Assembly (NCBI GenBank): GCA_029268475.1
Contig: JAQWNR010000022.1
Location: forward strand, 29,882-93,881
DNA: 64,000 nucleotides
Source of the DNA: Porticoccaceae bacterium
GTDB lineage: Bacteria; Pseudomonadota; Gammaproteobacteria; Pseudomonadales; Porticoccaceae
Reading direction: 5' to 3'
Below, one piece after another: positions 18,893-46,426 of this stretch. A program made the position numbers and the translations under genes. The first letter of the stretch is position 1, and every line of letters begins with the position of its first letter. Under the pieces are notes generated by a model. The model saw only the letters and a list, made by a program, of their open reading frames with translations, was not told the origin of the DNA and made no database searches.

Positions 18893-19459
18893 ATGCGGCA
18901 ATTAATCGTGCTTTGTATGGGCATTTTGGTACTTGGCGGTTGCACTTCGGTCGTCGATTCCGTGACTAATGAACCCATTGTGGCCGATCCGGCTAGTACC
19001 AGTGCGGGTACCTATTACAATGATAGGAAAATGGACACCTTTATTGGCGTCAATATTAAAAAAGCCCATCCTGATCTCGATGCATCGCATATTAATGTTA
19101 ACGTTGCCAAAGCGGTAGTATTGCTCACAGGTGAGGTACCAAGCCGCGAAATGAAAATATTGGCGGGCGATACAGCAAGGGACTTTACTGGTGTGCGTCT
19201 GGTCCACAATGAATTACAGGTGAGGGGCAAAACCTCGATAGTCTCGCGTACCAATGATTCTATGATCACCGCTAAAATAAAAACCAAACTAGCCTTTGAA
19301 GAACAGGTTAAAGCACTTAATATCGATGTAATCACTGAGGACAGTGTGGTTTACCTTATGGGTACTATCGATAGGGTCAGTGGTGATTTGGCCGCTGATA
19401 TTGCCAGCGCCAGTGGTGGTGTGCGAAAAGTGGTTAAAGTGTTTGAATATATTGACTAA
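18893..19459 (+). CDS. dolP: Dual BON-domain outer-membrane lipoprotein (DolP/YraP)
   Basis: 188 aa with lipobox LVLGGC and two BON domains (VNVAKAVVLLTGEV and VITEDSVVYLMGTI). Confidence 0.85.
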   Translation: MRQLIVLCMGILVLGGCTSVVDSVTNEPIVADPASTSAGTYYNDRKMDTFIGVNIKKAHPDLDASHINVNVAKAVVLLTGEVPSREMKILAGDTARDFTGVRLVHNELQVRGKTSIVSRTNDSMITAKIKTKLAFEEQVKALNIDVITEDSVVYLMGTIDRVSGDLAADIASASGGVRKVVKVFEYID

Positions 19460-19474
19460 GGTATTAACAATAAT

Positions 19475-19508
19475 AAAAAAGCCCTGTTTTTGACAACAGG
19501 GCTTTTTT
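19475..19508. terminator. Bidirectional intrinsic terminator between convergent dolP and the thiolase gene
   Basis: AAAAAA-gccctgtt-tttgac-aacagggc-TTTTTT read directly. It is an 8-bp GC-rich stem flanked by an A-run and a T-run. Confidence 0.85.
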
Positions 19509-39195: not shown

Positions 39196-39372
39196 ATGCT
39201 TAATTACCGCCTAGTCGCAACCCTCCTTCTGCTCAGTATTGTGGTCTTCCCTATGGCCATCCAATGGGCTAAAGAGCCCAGTGGAAGCTGGTTTCGCCCT
39301 TTTGTAGTATGGGCAATGCTGGTATTCGCTGCCTATGTTGCCTATCGACACAGAGGTCGCGATGAATCCTGA
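39196..39372 (+). CDS. 58-codon two-TM small ORF overlapping the cbrA start (cbrX-like)
   Basis: Own translation gives MLNYRLVATLLLLSIVVFPMAIQWAKEPSGSWFRPFVVWAMLVFAAYVAYRHRGRDES. It falls below the size cutoff of the ORF track. The last 11 nt overlap the cbrA ATG at 39362. Confidence 0.5.
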   Translation: MLNYRLVATLLLLSIVVFPMAIQWAKEPSGSWFRPFVVWAMLVFAAYVAYRHRGRDES

Positions 39373-42229
39373 GGTTTTACTGAGTTGTCTGGCAGTAATA
39401 GTGCTCGGTCTATTTGCATCGAAGTGGTTACTAAGACGCGCTCAAGGTAATAGAAAAGATTTGGCGCTTAATCTTGGTCTACTATCGGGCACTGGTGTGC
39501 TGATGGCGATGGGCTCAATAGAAATGGCCGGACGCTATGGCTACAGCATTATTCTTGCTCTGGTAGCATTCAGCCTAGTTTTTGTTATATCACCGCTTAT
39601 CTTTGCCCCCATTCATCGCCTTAACGGCGTGATTCGCTTTGCTACCTCAATTGATTTTTTGACTTTTAGATTTCGCGGAAGAACAGTGGCAATAATCGCC
39701 TGCATAAGCCTTACTGTTGCCACCGTGCCACTTATTCTCGCTCAAATCACGGCCATAGAGTCAGTTGCTGATTATTTATTCGGTAGCCCGTCTAAGCTAC
39801 TCATTCTGTTATTAATAACCGGGCTATTAATCTCACTTAACCTGTTTTCGATCCAACTTAATAGCGAAAATAATCTTGGTTGGATAATGACAACAGCTGG
39901 CTTATTGCTCCTGCCTGCTTTGGCTCTTTCTGCTTGGACATCGATTCAAGCAGTATTCGGCGGTCTAGCGGAAATGAATACTTGGGTCATAGACAGTGGG
40001 CAGCGAAATATTGTGCAACGCATGGATGCCTCATACAGCCTGTTTATTATCTTTCTCGCCGCCAGCTTTGCCTCACCGATCAATTTTAGACTTTTGGTAG
40101 CAGACAATATTTCTGAACGTCAGACTGATATGACCTCTTGGGCCTATCCACTACTTGTTCTGTTGGCCTGCATTCCCGTATTTCCGTTGCTTTGGTCCGG
40201 TATCTCCCTACAGTCTTTGTCGCCACTACAGGAATATCTGTTTAGCCTACCCTTACTGACTAACCAACCACTAATCTCTGGTCTGGGTGCTGCCTGTATC
40301 ACCATGCTAGCCATATCATTTGCCTGTAGCCTTATCGTTATCTCCTCGAAAATACTGATCAATAGCTGCCTGCTACCAACCAAGGACTTGCATCAACAGC
40401 CTCAGTTAACAGTATGGCTAAAACGTCGGCAACTCCTTATTGCTACCGGTATGGTTGTCTTTTGCATGGCCCTGAGCCTGACAGGAAAAGGTCGCAGTAT
40501 TACCGATTACTATCTGGCAGGTTTCGCCGGTCTGGCCCAGTTGACACCGGGGATGCTTGCAGCAACTTACTTACCAGGCGTTAATCGCCGAGGGTTTCTT
40601 GTTGGTCTGACAGCGGGCATGCTGTTGTGGTTGGTCACCATTGCACTGCCCTTATTATTTGGCGATTGGACCTGGCAACTACCCATGTCCGATAAAACCA
40701 TTCAAGTAGGCATGCAAAATTGGAGTATCTGGGCCATTGAAGCGCTATTGGTCAATATCACACTGTGCACTGTATTCAGTGTATTTAGTACGATGGATAG
40801 CGAGCAAAAAACCTTTGCTAGCCTGTGCATGGTTGACAATGTCTATATTCCTGCGCGTATCGAAATTGCACAAAAATCAGTCGATGAAATTACCGCCAAC
40901 TTACGCCTGTCTCTGGGTGACGATGCGGATAACGAGGTGCTACAAGCTCTTGAAACGTTGGGATTACAACACAGCGAAGTCAGGCCTGCTGCGCTGCGCC
41001 AACTTCGGGATACAATTAATGCCTCACTGAATATGCGCTTTGGTGTGTTGGCAGCCAATCGCATCATGGAAAAATCACTCCCTGTCACCATACCCAGTAC
41101 TAATGATCCAGACGACATCTATCTTATTGAATCGATGTTAGCCATTCATGGTGACCGATTAACGGGTATTGCCAGTGAACTTAACAAACTGCGTATGCAT
41201 CATCGAGAAATTATCGATAATTTACCTATCGGTGTGATCTCAGTTGACCCGCACGGGGAAGTGGTCAAATGGAACTCAGCAATAGCCCGTTACACTGACC
41301 TCAACAGCGATGTGATTACTGGCAGTTCGATAAGTGAGTTGCCGCAACCCTGGGGTCCTGCGATCACCGATTTTATTACTAGCGATGCCAGCATAATTGA
41401 TGATTTACAACTTGAAATACAGGGTGAGGTCCGTTGGTTTAGTCTGCAAAAATCTGCACAACAGACGAATCCAGACACAGACATAGTAGTGCTTGTAGAA
41501 GAGCATACCAGCGCGGTCAATCTGATCCAGAAATCCATTGATAATGAACGACTGGCATCGGTTGGTCGATTGGCAGCAGGCGTTGCCCATGAAATAGGCA
41601 ACCCCGTCACCGGCATTGCTTGCCTTGCGCAGAATCTACAACATGAAACTGACAGCAATGAGATAGAGTATACCGCTGAACAGATTTTATCTCAGACTCA
41701 ACGTATTAACCGTATTGTGCAATCACTCCTTAGCTTCTCTCGAGGTGGTAACCCCGTAGCTTCGACAAAGCAAACCATCTATCTGCGACATGCGGCCAAA
41801 GAAGCGATTAACTTGCTCACTATGAGCGCCTCTCAAATCGACGTGACATTTAGTACAGAGATTGACGACGAACTAACTATTACTGGCGACTATCATCACT
41901 TAATTCAAATATTTCTCAACTTACTCAGTAATTCTCGCGATGCCTCCCCTGCCGGTGGTGTTATTAGTATCAAAGCTAACCGCACAGATCATCAGGTTCA
42001 GCTTAAAATCAGCGATGAGGGTTCAGGTATTGATGACAAGGTAAAAGGGCATTTGTTTGAGCCCTTTGTTACCAATAAGGATCCTGGCAGTGGCACGGGA
42101 TTGGGATTATGGGTGGTCATAAATCTAGTTAACAGCATGGGAGGGGACATTTCCATAGTCAGCCCAGCAGAAAATAGCCAACATGGTACTACTGCAACTA
42201 TTAGTTTTCCCCTATCATCCACATCATGA
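39362..42229 (+). CDS. cbrA: CbrA-like sensor histidine kinase with N-terminal SLC5 (sodium:solute symporter-like) domain
   Basis: A polytopic N-terminal half of about 500 aa is followed by a PAS region, the H-box AAGVAHEIGNPVTGI and the HATPase motifs SDEGSGI and GSGTGLGL. Synteny is dksA-gluQ-cbrA-cbrB-pcnB-folK as in Pseudomonas. The start is preferred at MNPEVLL (39362). Confidence 0.8.
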   Translation: MNPEVLLSCLAVIVLGLFASKWLLRRAQGNRKDLALNLGLLSGTGVLMAMGSIEMAGRYGYSIILALVAFSLVFVISPLIFAPIHRLNGVIRFATSIDFLTFRFRGRTVAIIACISLTVATVPLILAQITAIESVADYLFGSPSKLLILLLITGLLISLNLFSIQLNSENNLGWIMTTAGLLLLPALALSAWTSIQAVFGGLAEMNTWVIDSGQRNIVQRMDASYSLFIIFLAASFASPINFRLLVADNISERQTDMTSWAYPLLVLLACIPVFPLLWSGISLQSLSPLQEYLFSLPLLTNQPLISGLGAACITMLAISFACSLIVISSKILINSCLLPTKDLHQQPQLTVWLKRRQLLIATGMVVFCMALSLTGKGRSITDYYLAGFAGLAQLTPGMLAATYLPGVNRRGFLVGLTAGMLLWLVTIALPLLFGDWTWQLPMSDKTIQVGMQNWSIWAIEALLVNITLCTVFSVFSTMDSEQKTFASLCMVDNVYIPARIEIAQKSVDEITANLRLSLGDDADNEVLQALETLGLQHSEVRPAALRQLRDTINASLNMRFGVLAANRIMEKSLPVTIPSTNDPDDIYLIESMLAIHGDRLTGIASELNKLRMHHREIIDNLPIGVISVDPHGEVVKWNSAIARYTDLNSDVITGSSISELPQPWGPAITDFITSDASIIDDLQLEIQGEVRWFSLQKSAQQTNPDTDIVVLVEEHTSAVNLIQKSIDNERLASVGRLAAGVAHEIGNPVTGIACLAQNLQHETDSNEIEYTAEQILSQTQRINRIVQSLLSFSRGGNPVASTKQTIYLRHAAKEAINLLTMSASQIDVTFSTEIDDELTITGDYHHLIQIFLNLLSNSRDASPAGGVISIKANRTDHQVQLKISDEGSGIDDKVKGHLFEPFVTNKDPGSGTGLGLWVVINLVNSMGGDISIVSPAENSQHGTTATISFPLSSTS

Positions 42230-43479
42230 ATAAAACTCAACACCATATCCTTATTGTCGAAGACGAAGAGATTATTCGTACCTCACTGCGCAAACTTCTC
42301 GAGCGCAACGGCTTTTCAGTCTCTGAAGCTATCAGTGTCAAAGCCGCACAGCAGGCATTTAATCTCAATAGCTTTGACCTGGTGATTAGCGATCTCAGGC
42401 TGCCAGGCAGCGCGGGTACTGATCTAATTAAAGGCTCTAACACTGTGCCGGTTATCATTATGACCAGTTATGCCAGCCTGCGATCTGCGGTTGAGACGAT
42501 GCGTCAAGGCGCTGTCGATTATATTTCTAAGCCCTTTGATCATGACGAAATGATCAATGCTGTAAAACGTATTTTCGAAAAACCTATAAAAAGCACCCAA
42601 CAGTTAAACCGTCTGCTTATGGGTGACAACTCGGAAATGTTAAGAATACTACGCACGGTTCATAAAGCTGCACCGACCACCGCACCGGTACTTATTCAAG
42701 GCGAAAACGGTACTGGGCGGCGTACTATTGCAGAAATAATCCATGCTGACAGTGGTTTAGAAGAGCGATCTTTCCGCAATATTAATTGCTCCTCAGCTAC
42801 GGCAACGGAACTATCGGATATATTGGATCGGGGTAATGTTGGCACTCTGTTCCTTAACAATATTTGTGAACTCACCCCCGCTCTGCAACCCTATGTACTG
42901 AAAATCTTGCAGAAAAAAGCATCTCGCATTATTGCCTCAGCAGAGCACAACCTCAAAGCCCTAGTAGAAAAAGGTCACTTCCGCAAAGATTTGTACTACA
43001 GCCTTAATGTAGTCAAGATTCATGTACCCACATTGCGTGAAAGAACTGGGGATATACCAGCCTTGATTAATTATTTTGTCAACTTCTACGGTACCGAGCT
43101 AGGCATGGATATAGTCTTAACTGAAGACGCTATTCGCGCGCTGACCAACCATAGTTGGCCAGGTAATGTGCAAGAATTGCAAAATACCATCTATCAAGCT
43201 GTAATTCTTGCAGAAGCCGGAGAGCCGATAAATGCTCAGATGTTGGGTCTTAGTGATGCGCCCGACAATCATATTAATGAGGTAACTGGCGAAGTAGGTC
43301 ATCCAACCACATCCATAGATGGGCCAGCAGGCCTCTCACTCGAGGACTATTTCACCAGTTTCGTACTGGAAAATCAGGAAAATATGAGTGAAACAGCGCT
43401 AGCACAAAAACTTGGCATTAGCCGCAAATCTCTCTGGGAAAGACGTAATAAACTCGGGATTAGCCGTAAAAAAGCTTAA
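42226..43479 (+). CDS. cbrB: CbrB-like NtrC-family response regulator with degenerate AAA+ core
   Basis: It has a receiver domain (ILIVEDEE...DLVISDLRLPG), a central domain with GENGTGRR and TLFLNNI, and a C-terminal Fis-type HTH (MSETALAQKLGISRKSLWERRNKLGI). An ATGA overlap joins it to the cbrA stop. Confidence 0.8.
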   Translation: MNKTQHHILIVEDEEIIRTSLRKLLERNGFSVSEAISVKAAQQAFNLNSFDLVISDLRLPGSAGTDLIKGSNTVPVIIMTSYASLRSAVETMRQGAVDYISKPFDHDEMINAVKRIFEKPIKSTQQLNRLLMGDNSEMLRILRTVHKAAPTTAPVLIQGENGTGRRTIAEIIHADSGLEERSFRNINCSSATATELSDILDRGNVGTLFLNNICELTPALQPYVLKILQKKASRIIASAEHNLKALVEKGHFRKDLYYSLNVVKIHVPTLRERTGDIPALINYFVNFYGTELGMDIVLTEDAIRALTNHSWPGNVQELQNTIYQAVILAEAGEPINAQMLGLSDAPDNHINEVTGEVGHPTTSIDGPAGLSLEDYFTSFVLENQENMSETALAQKLGISRKSLWERRNKLGISRKKA

Positions 43480-43514
43480 ATATTGAGCTAGAGCAGGTTT
43501 AAACCGACGCTAAC

Positions 43515-43531
43515 TGTTTCTAAAAGTAACA
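43515..43531 (+). promoter_or_regulatory. Imperfect inverted repeat TGTTTC-N5-GTAACA upstream of the candidate sRNA promoter
   Basis: Read directly. The half-sites resemble the TGTTAC/GTAACA half-sites I recall for Pseudomonas CbrB, but the spacing differs. The centre is about 90 nt upstream of the predicted TSS. Confidence 0.3.
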
Positions 43532-43578
43532 TTCAGGACAAATTTGTTTTTTTTACAAGGAAAAATTCAGTAAACCTC

Positions 43579-43606
43579 TTGATGCGATGTGATTTCTGTT
43601 TAGAAT
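43579..43606 (+). promoter_or_regulatory. Sigma70-like promoter TTGATG-N16-TAGAAT
   Basis: Read directly, with the -35 at 43579-43584 and the -10 at 43601-43606. An AT-rich region with a T8 run lies upstream. Confidence 0.5.
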
Positions 43607-43612
43607 GGAGCT

Positions 43613-43738
43613 ACCAAGATTTTATTCTTGAGTAATAACAACAATAAATAATAAAAAACGGATGGATTGCAAAAAGTGTTCCAGAAGCTCAGGCTTTAAG
43701 AACCATTGAGGGGGGATGTCAAACGGCATCCCTTTTTT
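43613..43738 (+). ncRNA. Candidate CrcZ-like Hfq/Crc-sponge sRNA (about 125 nt)
   Basis: It occupies the cbrB-pcnB intergenic region where crcZ lies in Pseudomonas. It has a 5' hairpin CAAGA-UUUUAU-UCUUG (43615-43630), a 25-nt tract AAUAACAACAAUAAAUAAUAAAAAA (43634-43658) and an intrinsic terminator. No ORF is present. Confidence 0.5.
43713..43738 (+). terminator. Intrinsic terminator GGGAUGUC-AAAC-GGCAUCCC-UUUUUU
   Basis: Read directly. It is an 8-bp stem with one G-U pair followed by six U. Confidence 0.85.
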
Positions 43739-43834
43739 ATTGCCTGTGATTTTTACCAATAACAAGGAATACTCCCGCAACCGCTAATCCTCTGGTAAAC
43801 TCTTGCCCAACTATTGCTTACCGACACCCTTTTC

Positions 43835-45184
43835 ATGCTGAAACGTATCAGTCACTTTTTCTCACCTAACTCTCGCAAGCACAATACTAATGAGCATAGA
43901 GTGATTTTCAGTAACGAGCATAAATTGTCACCGAAGATGATCAATAAAGATGCTCTAAAGGTCGTTGAAGTACTTCAGGAGCATGGTTACGACGCCTATG
44001 TGGTGGGAGGCTCCATCCGTGACTTACTGCTAGGCCTCAAACCTAAAGATTTTGACGTTGCCACCAATGCTAGACCCAGTGAAATAAAGCCGCTATTTAG
44101 GCGTTCGCGCATTATCGGCCGGCGTTTTCAAATTGTGCATGTACAACTCGGTCGAGAACTCATTGAGGTGACTACGTTTCGCTCCAATGAAACAAAAGGA
44201 ACTGATAAAAAAGGTGGTAGCCGTCGCCAACAAGCGAATTCAGGCGTGCTCACTAGGGATAACGTGTTTGGCTCAATCAGCGATGATGCCAGCCGCAGAG
44301 ATCTAACCATCAATGCCCTTTACTATAATCCCAGTGACAACAGTATTCATGATTTCGCAGGCGGCCTTGATGATATTGATCAACGCCTGATAAGGATTAT
44401 GGGCGACCCCGCTACCAGGTTCCGAGAGGATCCAGTACGCCTACTCCGTGTTGCCCGCTTTGCCGCTAAACTAGGTTTTACTATTGATCCAATGACAGAG
44501 AAACCAATGCGCAAATTGGCCTCTAATCTGCAACACGTCTCCCCACCCAGGCTATTTGATGAAACCTTGAAGCTATTTATGAGTGGGCAGGGCTTGGCTA
44601 CTTTCTGGCTACTTTATGAATATGGTTTATTTGATTATATAGCGCCTCAAGTCAGCGCCATGATGAAAGACCGAAATAACCTCACCGGTAAACTTATTGA
44701 ACAAGCTTTCACCAATACTGATTTGCGTATTCGTAACAATAAGCGTGTTACACCCGCTTTTATCTATGCGGCATTGCTATGGCCTTCGGTACAACAGTTG
44801 GCAGCAGGTTATCGAGAACGCGGTAATAGTCCAGCCTACGCTCTCAGCAAAGCGGCAGGCGAAGTAATAGCCAAACAAATTCCAATCACGGCTATCCCCA
44901 AAAGATTTACCATGCCAATGCGTGAAATATGGGATTTACAGTTATTGTTACCGCGCCGCGGTGGGCACCGAGCTAAACGTCTCGTAGATCACCCAAGGTT
45001 TCGCGCTGCCTACGACTTTGTCTTATTGCGTGAGCAGGCGGGTGAGGAATTGAGCGGACTGGGCGACTGGTGGACCGCTTACCAAAATGCCGATGAAGAG
45101 AAACGTGAACAGATGGCCAAGGCGCTTGGCGAGCCAAAGCGCAACCGCAAACGCCGCAAACCCAGAAAACCCAAGACAGACTGA
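43835..45184 (+). CDS. pcnB: Poly(A) polymerase I
   Basis: It has VVGGSIRDLLLGLKPKDFDVATNA and RRFQIVHV motifs and a basic C-terminal tail. The start is ATG 43835 or TTG 43814. Confidence 0.9.
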   Translation: MLKRISHFFSPNSRKHNTNEHRVIFSNEHKLSPKMINKDALKVVEVLQEHGYDAYVVGGSIRDLLLGLKPKDFDVATNARPSEIKPLFRRSRIIGRRFQIVHVQLGRELIEVTTFRSNETKGTDKKGGSRRQQANSGVLTRDNVFGSISDDASRRDLTINALYYNPSDNSIHDFAGGLDDIDQRLIRIMGDPATRFREDPVRLLRVARFAAKLGFTIDPMTEKPMRKLASNLQHVSPPRLFDETLKLFMSGQGLATFWLLYEYGLFDYIAPQVSAMMKDRNNLTGKLIEQAFTNTDLRIRNNKRVTPAFIYAALLWPSVQQLAAGYRERGNSPAYALSKAAGEVIAKQIPITAIPKRFTMPMREIWDLQLLLPRRGGHRAKRLVDHPRFRAAYDFVLLREQAGEELSGLGDWWTAYQNADEEKREQMAKALGEPKRNRKRRKPRKPKTD

Positions 45185-45721: not shown

Positions 45722-46426
45722 ATGGATTTGGAGACTTCTGTGGAACCCACATTGCTCAATGAATTTGATCTCGATTTATCCCTTGCATCTATACCCAGTT
45801 ATATTGCAATAGAAGGGCCTATCGGCATTGGCAAAACCACGCTCGCCAAGCGTCTAGCCAATTCTTTTAATTATGATACGTTGCTTGAAGAGGCTGAAGA
45901 GAATCCCTTTCTAGAACGTTTTTATCAAGATCGGCGCAGCAATGCTCTGCCAACACAGCTTTACTTTCTATTTCAACGCATGCGCAAACTGCAGGATTTG
46001 CGTCAAGGCGACATTTTTCAGCAAGTTCGCGTGTCTGATTTTCTTATCGAAAAAGACCCCTTATTTGCCCGTATCACATTAGACGATGATGAATATCGAC
46101 TCTATCAGACCGTATACGACAATATTATTGAAGATCTGCCAAAACCAGATTTGGTGATCTATCTGCAGGCACCTACAGAAACTCTCTATGAGCGCGTACA
46201 ACGCCGCGGCATCGCCATAGAGCGGCCCATTGAGCAGTCCTATCTACAACAGCTCAATGACGCTTACACCCAATTCTTTTACCATTATGATGACAGCCCG
46301 CTACTGATTGTTAATACCAGCGAAATAAACCTTGCCGATGGCGATCTTGATTATTATAACTTGGTGAAATACATGCTTAAGACCACCACAGGGCGCCATT
46401 ACTACAACCCTCAACCAATTCAATAA
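45722..46426 (+). CDS. Deoxynucleoside kinase family protein
   Basis: 234 aa with P-loop IEGPIGIGKTTLAKRL, an ERF-type motif NPFLERFY and LQAPTETLYERVQRRG (lid). Confidence 0.75.
   Translation: MDLETSVEPTLLNEFDLDLSLASIPSYIAIEGPIGIGKTTLAKRLANSFNYDTLLEEAEENPFLERFYQDRRSNALPTQLYFLFQRMRKLQDLRQGDIFQQVRVSDFLIEKDPLFARITLDDDEYRLYQTVYDNIIEDLPKPDLVIYLQAPTETLYERVQRRGIAIERPIEQSYLQQLNDAYTQFFYHYDDSPLLIVNTSEINLADGDLDYYNLVKYMLKTTTGRHYYNPQPIQ

What the first reader, a model, noticed from the sequence alone, without database searches (positions are those of the whole stretch)
43500..43740. Compact CrcZ-position sRNA candidate with one long (ARN)n tract and a sigma70-type, not sigma54-type, promoter
In Pseudomonas the cbrB-pcnB spacer encodes CrcZ. 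CrcZ is a CbrB/sigma54-dependent sRNA of several hundred nt, with multiple A-rich AANAANAA motifs that sequester Hfq/Crc. The 355-bp spacer here has no ORF. It contains these elements.
- An AT-rich region with a TGTTTC-N5-GTAACA inverted repeat (43515-43531).
- TTGATG-N16-TAGAAT (43579-43606).
- A 5' hairpin CAAGA/UCUUG (43615-43630).
- An unstructured 25-nt tract AAUAACAACAAUAAAUAAUAAAAAA (43634-43658), which holds about five overlapping AANAANAA/ARN-type Hfq distal-face motifs.
- A strong intrinsic terminator (43713-43738).

I could not find any TGGCAC-N5-TTGC-like element. This fits the degenerate CbrB next door. The result would be a miniaturised, differently wired functional analogue of CrcZ of about 125 nt.
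Basis: partly seen in the sequence, partly recalled or inferred. Interest (0 to 1): 0.65.

Follow-up and report, generated by a model that had tools for sequence, protein, structure and literature searches.

The report
Compact CrcZ-position small RNA in SAR92
Marine SAR92 (Porticoccaceae) bacteria carry a conserved small RNA of about 128 nt, abundant in at least one metatranscriptome, where Pseudomonas has its carbon-control RNA CrcZ; it has one long Hfq-type A-rich tract and an ordinary sigma-70 promoter, and its function is inferred, not tested.

Summary

**It is a real gene.**
- 20 genome loci and 30 metagenome loci carry it, always between cbrB and pcnB.
- Its core is more conserved than the flanking coding DNA.
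- The helices show compensatory changes.
- In one metatranscriptome an orthologue reaches depth 740, against 2.5 for cbrB.

**The locus matches the Pseudomonas cbr locus.**
- The gene order is dksA-gluQ-cbrX-cbrA-cbrB-sRNA-pcnB-folK, as in Pseudomonas.
- CbrB is 42% identical to Pseudomonas CbrB, and its DNA-binding helix is nearly the same.
- The AAA+ core has lost GAFTGA, the Walker B acidic pair and the arginine finger.
- The promoter is sigma-70 type, with no GG-N10-GC.
- The upstream dyad TGTTTC-N5-GTAACA reuses the CbrB half-sites TGTTAC/GTAACA.

**It is not a CrcZ family member.**
- Rfam CrcZ does not match it, although the same scan finds Pseudomonas CrcZ at 355 bits.
- It has (ARN)6 plus (ARN)4-5 in one tract; CrcZ has six dispersed blocks.

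**Function is inferred.** The best reading is an sRNA under CbrAB control that binds the distal face of Hfq. It would act as a CrcZ-like antagonist, as a ChiX-like base-pairing RNA, or as both. Hfq binding, CbrB dependence and any role for Crc are untested.

The parts
39196..39372 (+). cbrX-like mini-ORF: 58 aa with two hydrophobic helices, overlapping the cbrA start in another frame
   Evidence: P. putida cbrX is also 58 aa, has two helices and overlaps cbrA (PMC8871633).
39335..42229 (+). cbrA-like sensor kinase: about 11 hydrophobic segments in the first 490 aa, then PAS, HisKA and HATPase domains
   Evidence: It is 37% identical to Pseudomonas CbrA over residues 203-953.
42226..43479 (+). 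cbrB-like response regulator with intact receiver and HTH domains. The AAA+ core is degenerate: Walker A reads GENGTGRR, Walker B reads LFLNN, GAFTGA and the L2 insertion are deleted, and the finger motif reads YYSLN.
   Evidence: It is 42% identical to Pseudomonas CbrB, and the HTH segment is nearly identical.
43515..43531 (+). Upstream dyad TGTTTC-N5-GTAACA, the putative CbrB dimer site, centred near -90
   Evidence: It is kept in 18 of the 21 lineages inspected for it. The Pseudomonas CbrB subsites are TGTTAC and GTAACA (PMC6296734; seen in L244).
43532..43578 (+). AT-rich region with A- and T-tracts between the dyad and the -35 hexamer (UP-element-like or bendable)
   Evidence: Orthologues are also AT-rich here. 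A role is inferred only.
43579..43606 (+). Sigma-70-type promoter TTGATG-N16-TAGAAT
   Evidence: CTTG and TAGAAT/TACAAT/TAAGAT are conserved in all 20 orthologues. There is no GG-N10-GC.
43613..43741 (+). The sRNA transcript, about 126-129 nt. The start at A43613 is inferred by alignment to the 5' ends seen in orthologue L006.
43615..43630 (+). P1, the 5' hairpin
   Evidence: 4 of 5 pairs show compensatory changes and 100% of cells are paired.
43631..43658 (+). A-rich tract: (ARN)6 AGU AAU AAC AAC AAU AAA, then (ARN)4 AAU AAU AAA AAA in a +1 frame
   Evidence: Invariant columns fall on triplet positions 1 and 2, variable columns fall on N, and the one indel is 3 nt and in phase.
43660..43709 (+). 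Structured 3' domain. P2 pairs GAUGG with CCAUU, P3 pairs UUC with GAA, the bulge AUUGCAAAAAGUG is conserved, and a variable hairpin lies at 43684-43697.
   Evidence: P2 shows wobble-compatible changes only. P3 has one compensatory change.
43708..43741 (+). Intrinsic terminator: a GC-rich stem followed by a U6 tail
   Evidence: Two pairs show compensatory changes.
43772..43801 (+). pcnB's own promoter-like element, CTCCCG...CCTCTGGTAAACT
   Evidence: It is conserved in all Porticoccaceae loci, including those without the sRNA.
43835..45184 (+). pcnB, poly(A) polymerase I
   Evidence: It is 51% identical to Pseudomonas PcnB.

Best explanation
Positions 43613 to about 43741 (+ strand) encode an independently transcribed, terminated small RNA of about 128 nt. 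It is the Porticoccaceae counterpart, by position and wiring, of Pseudomonas CrcZ.

**Proposed mechanism:**
1. The CbrA-like kinase phosphorylates the CbrB-like regulator.
2. That regulator can no longer contact sigma-54 or hydrolyse ATP. It binds as a dimer to TGTTTC-N5-GTAACA at about -90.
3. It then activates sigma-70 RNA polymerase at TTGATG-N16-TAGAAT.
4. The RNA presents an unstructured (ARN)6+(ARN)4 tract between a 5' hairpin and a structured 3' domain that ends in a U-tailed terminator.
5. The tract fills the six distal-face pockets of an Hfq hexamer, and the U tail can hold the proximal face.
6. When abundant, the RNA therefore competes with mRNAs that carry ARN motifs and relieves Hfq-mediated repression, as CrcZ does.

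**Shown here:** the gene, its conservation, its structure, abundance of an orthologue, the promoter type, the degenerate CbrB and the orthology of the locus.

**Inferred:** CbrB dependence, Hfq binding and the sponge effect.
For: **Locus orthology**
- The order sfsA-dksA-gluQ-cbrX-cbrA-cbrB-sRNA-pcnB-folK-panB matches cbrA-cbrB-crcZ-pcnB-folK-panB in a Pseudomonas locus fetched here.
- CbrB is 42% identical overall. Its HTH reads LGISRKSLWERR against LGISRKCLWERR in Pseudomonas.

**A real gene**
- 20 genome loci and 30 metagenome loci carry it, always between cbrB and pcnB.
- The core is 84-88% identical where the cbrB and pcnB DNA is 61-74% identical.
- 99.6% of pair cells are paired, and 7 pairs show compensatory change.

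**Expression**
- In run X34, a 133-nt contig that lies wholly within the L006 orthologue has depth 740. The cbrB 3' end has depth 2.5.
- Contig 5' ends at L006 3902-3906 lie 5-9 nt after the -10 hexamer.

**Wiring**
- The -35 and -10 hexamers are conserved and no GG-N10-GC is present.
- GAFTGA and the Walker B DE pair are lost in all Porticoccaceae CbrB proteins but kept in outgroups.
- The dyad uses the CbrB half-sites. Its centre lies 76-78 bp upstream of the -10 hexamer in most lineages, 67 bp in L020 and about 81 bp in L234.

**Hfq**
- ARN periodicity is under selection.
- Six ARN triplets fill one Hfq hexamer, and CrcZ uses the same face (PMC4063720).
Against: - There is no direct evidence for Hfq binding, for CbrB binding or for any carbon-source response.
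- No hfq or crc gene lies in the window. This is uninformative about the genome, so Crc involvement is open.
- The window's own organism gave only low-depth contigs that look like DNA. Several runs for L006 and L015 show flat, low depth across the promoter.
- The X40 and X41 contigs are chimeric, and contig ends may reflect assembly-graph branch points.
- One tract can hold roughly one Hfq hexamer per RNA, which makes a weaker sponge than CrcZ with its six blocks.
- The 3' domain (GGAUGGAUUGCRAAAGUGUUC...GAACCAUUGA) is nearly invariant, and a pure sponge would not need that.
- L007, L009 and L021 lack the dyad.
- About ten Porticoccaceae lineages keep the degenerate CbrB but lack the sRNA.
Confidence: 0.55

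Rival explanations
1. It is a class II (ChiX-like) Hfq-dependent base-pairing sRNA. The ARN tract and U tail only anchor it on Hfq. Regulation is exerted by pairing of the conserved 3'-domain bulge or loops with specific mRNAs. Any Hfq titration is a side effect.
For: - The layout of 5' hairpin, ARN tract, conserved segment and terminator is that of ChiX (own knowledge).
- GGAUGGAUUGCRAAAGUGUUC and GAACCAUUGA are nearly invariant across lineages whose CbrB proteins are only about 50% identical.
- There is only one tract that can bind an Hfq hexamer.
Against: - No target could be identified. Duplex scans over the 64-kb window were uninformative.
- Much of the invariant segment is predicted to be paired (P2 and P3), and the few changes in it are wobble or compensatory changes. 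This fits structure better than a free seed.
Confidence: 0.3
2. It binds a different protein. The tandem GGA motifs in UGGAUGGAU would act as a CsrA/RsmA-type site, or the 3' domain would bind another regulator.
For: GGAUG resembles the core of the CsrA SELEX consensus (own knowledge). The motif is invariant in all 50 copies.
Against: - There are only two overlapping GGA motifs, whereas Csr/Rsm sponges carry many.
- The motif is predicted to lie in helix P2, not in a loop.
- No Csr/Rsm family in Rfam matches.
Confidence: 0.06
3. It is a cis-acting element rather than a gene of its own: either a terminated leader or attenuator controlling pcnB, or a by-product of the cbrB 3' UTR.
For: - It lies directly upstream of pcnB.
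- Some low-depth contigs run from cbrB through the promoter into the RNA.
- P. putida makes part of its CrcZ by processing a cbrB read-through transcript (PMC5113210).
Against: - It has its own conserved -35 and -10 hexamers.
- A pcnB promoter-like element lies downstream of the terminator and is conserved even in lineages that lack the RNA.
- Depth is about 300-fold higher on the RNA than on cbrB in X34.
Confidence: 0.06

Closest known systems
CrcZ (Rfam RF01675) of Pseudomonas and Azotobacter
   Same: - It sits in the same genomic slot, cbrB-sRNA-pcnB, within the same larger synteny.
- The upstream half-sites are those of CbrB.
- It carries A-rich AANAANAA/ARN motifs. An 11-nt string, AACAACAAUAA, is shared with the first CrcZ motif.
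- It ends in a GC-rich intrinsic terminator.
   Different: - It is about 128 nt, against about 405 nt for CrcZ.
- It has one composite tract, (ARN)6+(ARN)4-5, against six dispersed (ARN)4-5 blocks.
- Its promoter is sigma-70 type, against TGGCAC-N5-TGCT.
- Its dyad spacing is N5, against N14 to N16.
- Covariance models do not cross-match in either direction.
- It has a conserved 3' domain that CrcZ lacks.
ChiX and other class II Hfq sRNAs of enterobacteria
   Same: The layout is shared: 5' hairpin, (AAU)n ARN tract, conserved segment and U-tailed terminator. Such RNAs hold both faces of Hfq and are strong competitors for it (own knowledge).
   Different: There is no sequence or Rfam match. No target or seed was identified. 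The regulator and genomic context differ.
bEBP-like activators that lack GAFTGA and work with sigma-70 (V. cholerae VpsR, Caulobacter and Rhodobacter NtrC, HupR)
   Same: The CbrB here keeps the NtrC-family architecture, lacks the sigma-54 contact loop and sits next to a sigma-70 promoter. The precedents were found (PMC6158489; bioRxiv 10.1101/2023.06.06.543975).
   Different: It is an orthologue of CbrB, which is sigma-54-dependent in Pseudomonas. It has also lost the Walker B DE pair and the arginine finger. Its activity was not tested.

Membership tests
CrcZ (RF01675) | Match to the family covariance model | tested here: not met
   No hit at the gathering score or at E<=10 in the spacer, and none in 16 orthologous loci. 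As a positive control, the same kind of scan finds CrcZ at 355.5 bits in a Pseudomonas locus. The model of this RNA scores 4.6 bits on CrcZ.
CrcZ (RF01675) | Lies downstream of cbrB and upstream of pcnB | tested here: met
   The Pseudomonas order was confirmed. 'In all Pseudomonas genomes crcZ maps downstream from cbrB' (PMC5113210).
CrcZ (RF01675) | Sigma-54 promoter (GG-N10-GC) activated by CbrB | tested here: not met
   There is no GG-N10-GC on either strand. A conserved sigma-70 -35/-10 pair is present instead. Pseudomonas has TGGCAC-N5-TGCT.
CrcZ (RF01675) | CbrB subsites TGTTAC / GTAACA upstream | tested here: inconclusive
   The half-sites are present as TGTTTC-N5-GTAACA in 18 of the 21 lineages inspected for the dyad. 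The spacing differs (N5 against N14-16), and binding was not tested.
CrcZ (RF01675) | Several A-rich AANAANAA / (ARN)n motifs | tested here: met
   There are five overlapping AANAANAA matches, read as (ARN)6+(ARN)4. They form one tract rather than six blocks.
CrcZ (RF01675) | Binds and sequesters Hfq (with Crc) and relieves catabolite repression | not testable with these tools
   This needs EMSA, co-IP and genetics. The presence of crc in these genomes was not established (one search covers the window only).
Hfq-dependent sRNA, class II | ARN motif plus an intrinsic terminator with a U tail | tested here: met
Hfq-dependent sRNA, class II | Seed that pairs with target mRNAs | not testable with these tools
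   Only 64 kb of the genome is held, and the duplex scan was uninformative.
CbrB / NtrC-family bEBP (the neighbouring regulator) | Architecture of receiver, AAA+ and Fis-type HTH domains; orthology to Pseudomonas CbrB | tested here: met
   Pfam domains. 42% identity over the full length with a near-identical HTH. Synteny includes a cbrX-like ORF.
CbrB / NtrC-family bEBP (the neighbouring regulator) | GAFTGA loop, Walker B DE pair and arginine finger (sigma-54 coupling and ATPase) | tested here: not met
   All are absent in the window and in every Porticoccaceae homologue. They are present in the Cellvibrionaceae and Endozoicomonas homologues and in Pseudomonas.

The most novel reading that the evidence does not exclude
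The cbrX-cbrA-cbrB plus A-rich sRNA module is older than the Pseudomonadaceae. In the SAR92 lineage the whole output arm was rewired. The enhancer-binding protein lost sigma-54 coupling and became a classical sigma-70 activator that uses the same DNA half-sites. The sponge was compacted into a single RNA filling one Hfq hexamer, and it gained a second, conserved functional domain (a seed or a protein site). The result would be a dual-function sponge and riboregulator that controls carbon use in an abundant marine heterotroph.
Probability: 0.3. Interest if true: 0.75.

Novelty: new variant of a known kind. Interest (0 to 1): 0.6.

Why it matters
- **It challenges a textbook statement.** Reviews state that the CbrAB-CrcZ system and its synteny are unique to the Pseudomonadaceae (PMC8871633, PMC6296734). 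This locus shows an orthologous system in the marine SAR92/Porticoccaceae clade.
- **It is a natural experiment.** The sigma-54 activator has degenerated and the target promoter has switched to sigma-70, yet the DNA half-sites and the A-rich RNA output are kept.
- **It is a compact test substrate.** The RNA asks how much ARN sequence an Hfq antagonist needs.
- **It points to a regulator in the sea.** The RNA is a candidate post-transcriptional regulator of carbon use in an abundant group of marine heterotrophs. It is missing from Rfam, and its regulator is mis-named 'sigma-54-dependent' in public annotation.

Tried and rejected
- **First collection pattern too loose.** A tighter pattern replaced it.
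- **Runs holding the window's own sequence.** They gave only low-depth contigs, some crossing the promoter or the terminator. These cannot be told apart from DNA.
- **Runs for the L015 lineage.** Depth was flat over the genes and the spacer, so they were uninformative.
- **tblastn for hfq and crc.** I used Hfq and Crc sequences recalled from memory against the window and found nothing. This says nothing about the rest of the genome.
- **Duplex search for targets.** Pairing the conserved 3' domain against 71 start regions in the window gave only long, discontinuous duplexes with no outlier.
- **Search for ARN motifs at start sites.** The other (ARN)>=5 runs in the window lie antisense to coding genes, apart from one in a 3' UTR.
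- **Protein search with CbrB.** It returned only Porticoccaceae-type proteins with generic names and did not reach Pseudomonas. I obtained the Pseudomonas locus instead from a published CrcZ oligonucleotide.
- **Coding reading rejected.** The minus-strand 52-aa ORF and an ATG within the terminator are not conserved.
- **pcnB leader reading rejected.** See the rival explanations.

Full report
**1. Observation**

- The dyad TGTTTCTAAAAGTAACA (43515-43531) is the only exact match to TGTTTC-N5-GTAACA in the window.
- TTGATG-N16-TAGAAT lies at 43579-43606.
- The CAAGA/UCUUG hairpin lies at 43615-43630.
- The 25-nt A-rich tract lies at 43634-43658.
- A 13-pair terminator with a U6 tail ends near 43738-43741. 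Position 43612-43740 folds at -33.1 kcal/mol with z = -3.95. The simple terminator scanner missed it.
- No GG-N10-GC lies on either strand of 43480-43640.
- The spacer is 355 bp if pcnB starts at ATG 43835.

Taken alone, the promoter match and the (ARN)>=5 runs are not far above chance. The weight of the case comes from comparison with other genomes.

**2. The locus**

The window comes from a bacterium of the SAR92 clade, family Porticoccaceae. Its CbrB-like protein is 93% identical to that of a Porticoccaceae genome assembled from a metagenome.

The gene order is sfsA, dksA, gluQ, a 58-aa two-helix mini-ORF overlapping the next start, a large kinase, a response regulator, the spacer, pcnB, folK, one extra ORF and panB. 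The kinase has about 11 hydrophobic segments followed by PAS, HisKA and HATPase domains.

I fetched a Pseudomonas locus using a published CrcZ oligonucleotide (PMC4063720 Table S3). It has cbrA-cbrB-crcZ-pcnB-folK-panB in the same order. Its proteins are 37% (CbrA), 42% (CbrB), 51% (PcnB), 46% (FolK) and 53% (PanB) identical to those of the window. The mini-ORF matches the description of P. putida cbrX, which is 58 aa, has two helices and overlaps cbrA (PMC8871633).

This is therefore an orthologous cbr locus. Reviews describe this system and its synteny as unique to the Pseudomonadaceae.

**3. The RNA is a conserved, structured gene**

Thirty Porticoccaceae loci were compared.
- Twenty carry the element in the cbrB-pcnB spacer.
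- Ten have a spacer of only about 100-185 bp and lack it.

A specific pattern scan of 185,579 species genomes found the element only in Porticoccaceae, on the same contigs, with about six chance hits elsewhere and no second copy. A metagenome scan added 30 copies. Each has cbrB upstream and pcnB downstream wherever the flanks exist. One divergent copy (L234) keeps the dyad, the promoter, a hairpin of different sequence, the ARN blocks and the 3' domain.

A covariance model scores the members at 87-148 bits. It finds nothing in the loci that lack the sRNA or elsewhere in the window.

Conservation of the RNA exceeds that of its neighbours. The core is 84-88% identical in lineages where the cbrB and pcnB DNA is 61-74% identical.

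The structure has four helices (control shuffles and slid partners score far lower).

| Helix | Pairs | Evidence |
|---|---|---|
| P1, 5' hairpin | 5 | 4 pairs with compensatory change |
| P2, GAUGG/CCAUU | 5 | the only three substitutions are wobble-compatible |
| P3, UUC/GAA | 3 | one compensatory change |
| Terminator | 12 | 2 pairs with compensatory change |

Overall, 99.6% of pair cells are paired. Indels of 1 nt among close relatives exclude coding on either strand.

**4. Expression**

Only assembled contigs of public metatranscriptomes could be examined.
- For the window's own sequence, the contigs are of low depth and some cross the promoter or terminator. They are uninformative.
- For the L006 orthologue, run X34 holds a 133-nt contig lying entirely within the RNA at depth 740. 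The cbrB 3' end in that run has depth 2.5.
- Runs X41 and X40 give depths of 226 and 57, but on chimeric contigs.
- Contig 5' ends fall at L006 3902-3906. That is 5-9 nt after the -10 hexamer, and 3904 aligns with A43613 of the window.
- Other runs show flat, low depth.

I read this as good evidence that the RNA accumulates far above its neighbours in at least one sample. It is only suggestive for the exact ends. The recurrent break at the G6|U position of the terminator arm, and a circular joint in the X34 contig, remain unexplained.

**5. Wiring**

The promoter is conserved. CTTG at -35 and TAGAAT at -10 (TAAGAT, TACAAT or TAGACT in a few) are present with a 16-17 nt spacer in every member.

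The CbrB-like protein has an intact receiver domain (VISDLRLPG, YISKPFD). Its C-terminal HTH is almost identical to that of Pseudomonas CbrB. The AAA+ core is degenerate:
- Walker A reads GENGTGRR.
- Walker B reads LFLNN instead of LFLDE.
- The ESELFGHEKGAFTGA segment and the L2 insertion are deleted.
- YYRL has become YYSL.

All Porticoccaceae homologues share these losses. Homologues from Cellvibrionaceae, from Endozoicomonas and from a metagenome contig labelled Polaribacter keep the canonical motifs.

The dyad has the half-sites that mutagenesis and EMSA define for Pseudomonas CbrB, TGTTAC and GTAACA (PMC6296734). These are visible as TGTTAC-N14-GTAACA-N16-GTAACG upstream of TGGCAC-N5-TGCT in the Pseudomonas locus. 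Here the two halves are only 5 bp apart, which is the usual geometry for an NtrC-family dimer (own knowledge).

The dyad centre lies 76-78 bp upstream of the -10 hexamer in most lineages, 67 bp in L020 and about 81 bp in L234. The dyad is absent in L007, L009 and L021.

Activators of this family that lack GAFTGA and work with sigma-70 are known, for example VpsR and Caulobacter NtrC. That CbrB binds here and activates sigma-70 RNA polymerase is an inference.

**6. The A-rich tract**

Every member has a first block of 4-7 ARN triplets. In the window this is AGU AAU AAC AAC AAU AAA. A second block of 3-6 triplets follows in a frame shifted by one.

In the alignment, the invariant columns fall on triplet positions 1 and 2. 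The variable columns fall on every third position. The only indel in the tract is 3 nt long and in phase. That is the signature of selection for ARN periodicity, which is the motif read by the distal face of Hfq. Six triplets fill one hexamer (PMC4063720).

Pseudomonas CrcZ (405 nt here) has six separate (ARN)4-5 blocks. The two RNAs share only the string AACAACAAUAA.

Rfam's CrcZ model does not match this RNA or any orthologue, yet it finds true CrcZ at 355.5 bits. The reciprocal model gives noise. Homology is therefore undetectable. The RNA is an analogue by position, by regulator and by motif, and not a family member.

**7. Mechanism and rivals**

The best-supported reading is an sRNA under CbrAB control that binds the distal face of Hfq through its ARN tract and the proximal face through its U tail. 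When abundant, it would antagonise Hfq-dependent repression, as CrcZ does.

My confidence in the separate steps is as follows:
- Real sRNA gene: about 0.9.
- CbrB control: about 0.6.
- Binding to the Hfq distal face: about 0.65.
- A sponge as the main function: about 0.4-0.5.

The main rival is a ChiX-like class II base-pairing sRNA. It is favoured by the near-invariant 3' domain and by the single-hexamer capacity of the tract. The two readings are not exclusive.

Binding of CsrA-type proteins to UGGAUGGAU, and a cis role for pcnB or cbrB, are minor rivals. pcnB keeps its own conserved promoter-like element even where the RNA is absent.

Whether Crc exists in these genomes could not be tested.

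**8. Novelty**

I found no Rfam family for this RNA and no paper on SAR92 small RNAs. It is a new variant of a known kind. It extends the Cbr/CrcZ paradigm beyond the Pseudomonadaceae, with a rewired promoter and regulator and a compacted RNA that has an extra conserved domain.

Noticed in passing
window 39196-39372 (+): A 58-aa ORF with two hydrophobic helices overlaps the cbrA start in another frame. It matches the published description of cbrX in P. putida (58 aa, two helices, overlapping cbrA).
   Followed up: partly
window 19466-19480 (+): An (AAN)5 tract, AACAATAATAAAAAA, sits directly after the stop of ORF 18893-19459 and directly before an intrinsic terminator (GCCCTGTT...AACAGGGCTTTTTT). 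It may be an Hfq-binding 3' UTR or an sRNA derived from a 3' UTR.
   Followed up: no
window 43772-43801; same element in L001-L027, L031, L041: A promoter-like element for pcnB, CTCCCG-N~12-CCTCTGKTAAACT, is conserved in all Porticoccaceae loci, including those without the sRNA.
   Followed up: partly
window 42226-43479 and homologues P0001-P0120: Public sources name these proteins 'sigma-54-dependent transcriptional regulator', although GAFTGA, the Walker B DE pair, the L2 insertion and the arginine finger are missing. The annotation is probably wrong for the whole family.
   Followed up: yes
L018, L019, L022-L027, L031, L041: About ten Porticoccaceae lineages, including true HTCC2207, keep the degenerate cbrB next to pcnB but have a spacer of only 100-185 bp and no sRNA. 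CbrB must have other targets there, or the RNA was lost.
   Followed up: partly
L007, L009, L021: These members keep the sRNA and its sigma-70 promoter but lack the TGTTTC-N5-GTAACA dyad, so their regulation may differ.
   Followed up: no
L006 3904-4006 (runs X34, X40, X41): Three metatranscriptome contigs break at exactly 4006, the G6|U position in the 5' arm of the terminator. The X34 contig joins 4006 back to 3904 as a circle. This may be an assembly-graph branch point, concatemer cDNA or a real processed end; it is unexplained.
   Followed up: no
L244 4119-4179 (-), Pseudomonas paraeruginosa: The Rfam family P36 (RF01679) matches the stretch between cbrB and crcZ. That stretch holds the CbrB subsites R1 and R2 and a terminator-like hairpin, so 'P36' may be the cbrB terminator and enhancer region rather than an sRNA.
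   Followed up: no
L012-L017, L020, L021 (alignment A3 columns 86-120): The central hairpin of the 3' domain is expanded by about 13 nt in one clade and by 25-30 nt in L020 and L021, while the flanking P2 and P3 helices stay fixed.
   Followed up: partly
window 39335-40800: The N-terminal membrane domain of the CbrA-like kinase (about 11 hydrophobic segments) gets no Pfam hit even at E<=5. It does align with Pseudomonas CbrA from residue 203 onward.
   Followed up: partly
window 45722-46426 (+): A 234-aa ORF resembling a P-loop kinase (weak dTMP-kinase match) lies between folK and panB.
   Followed up: no
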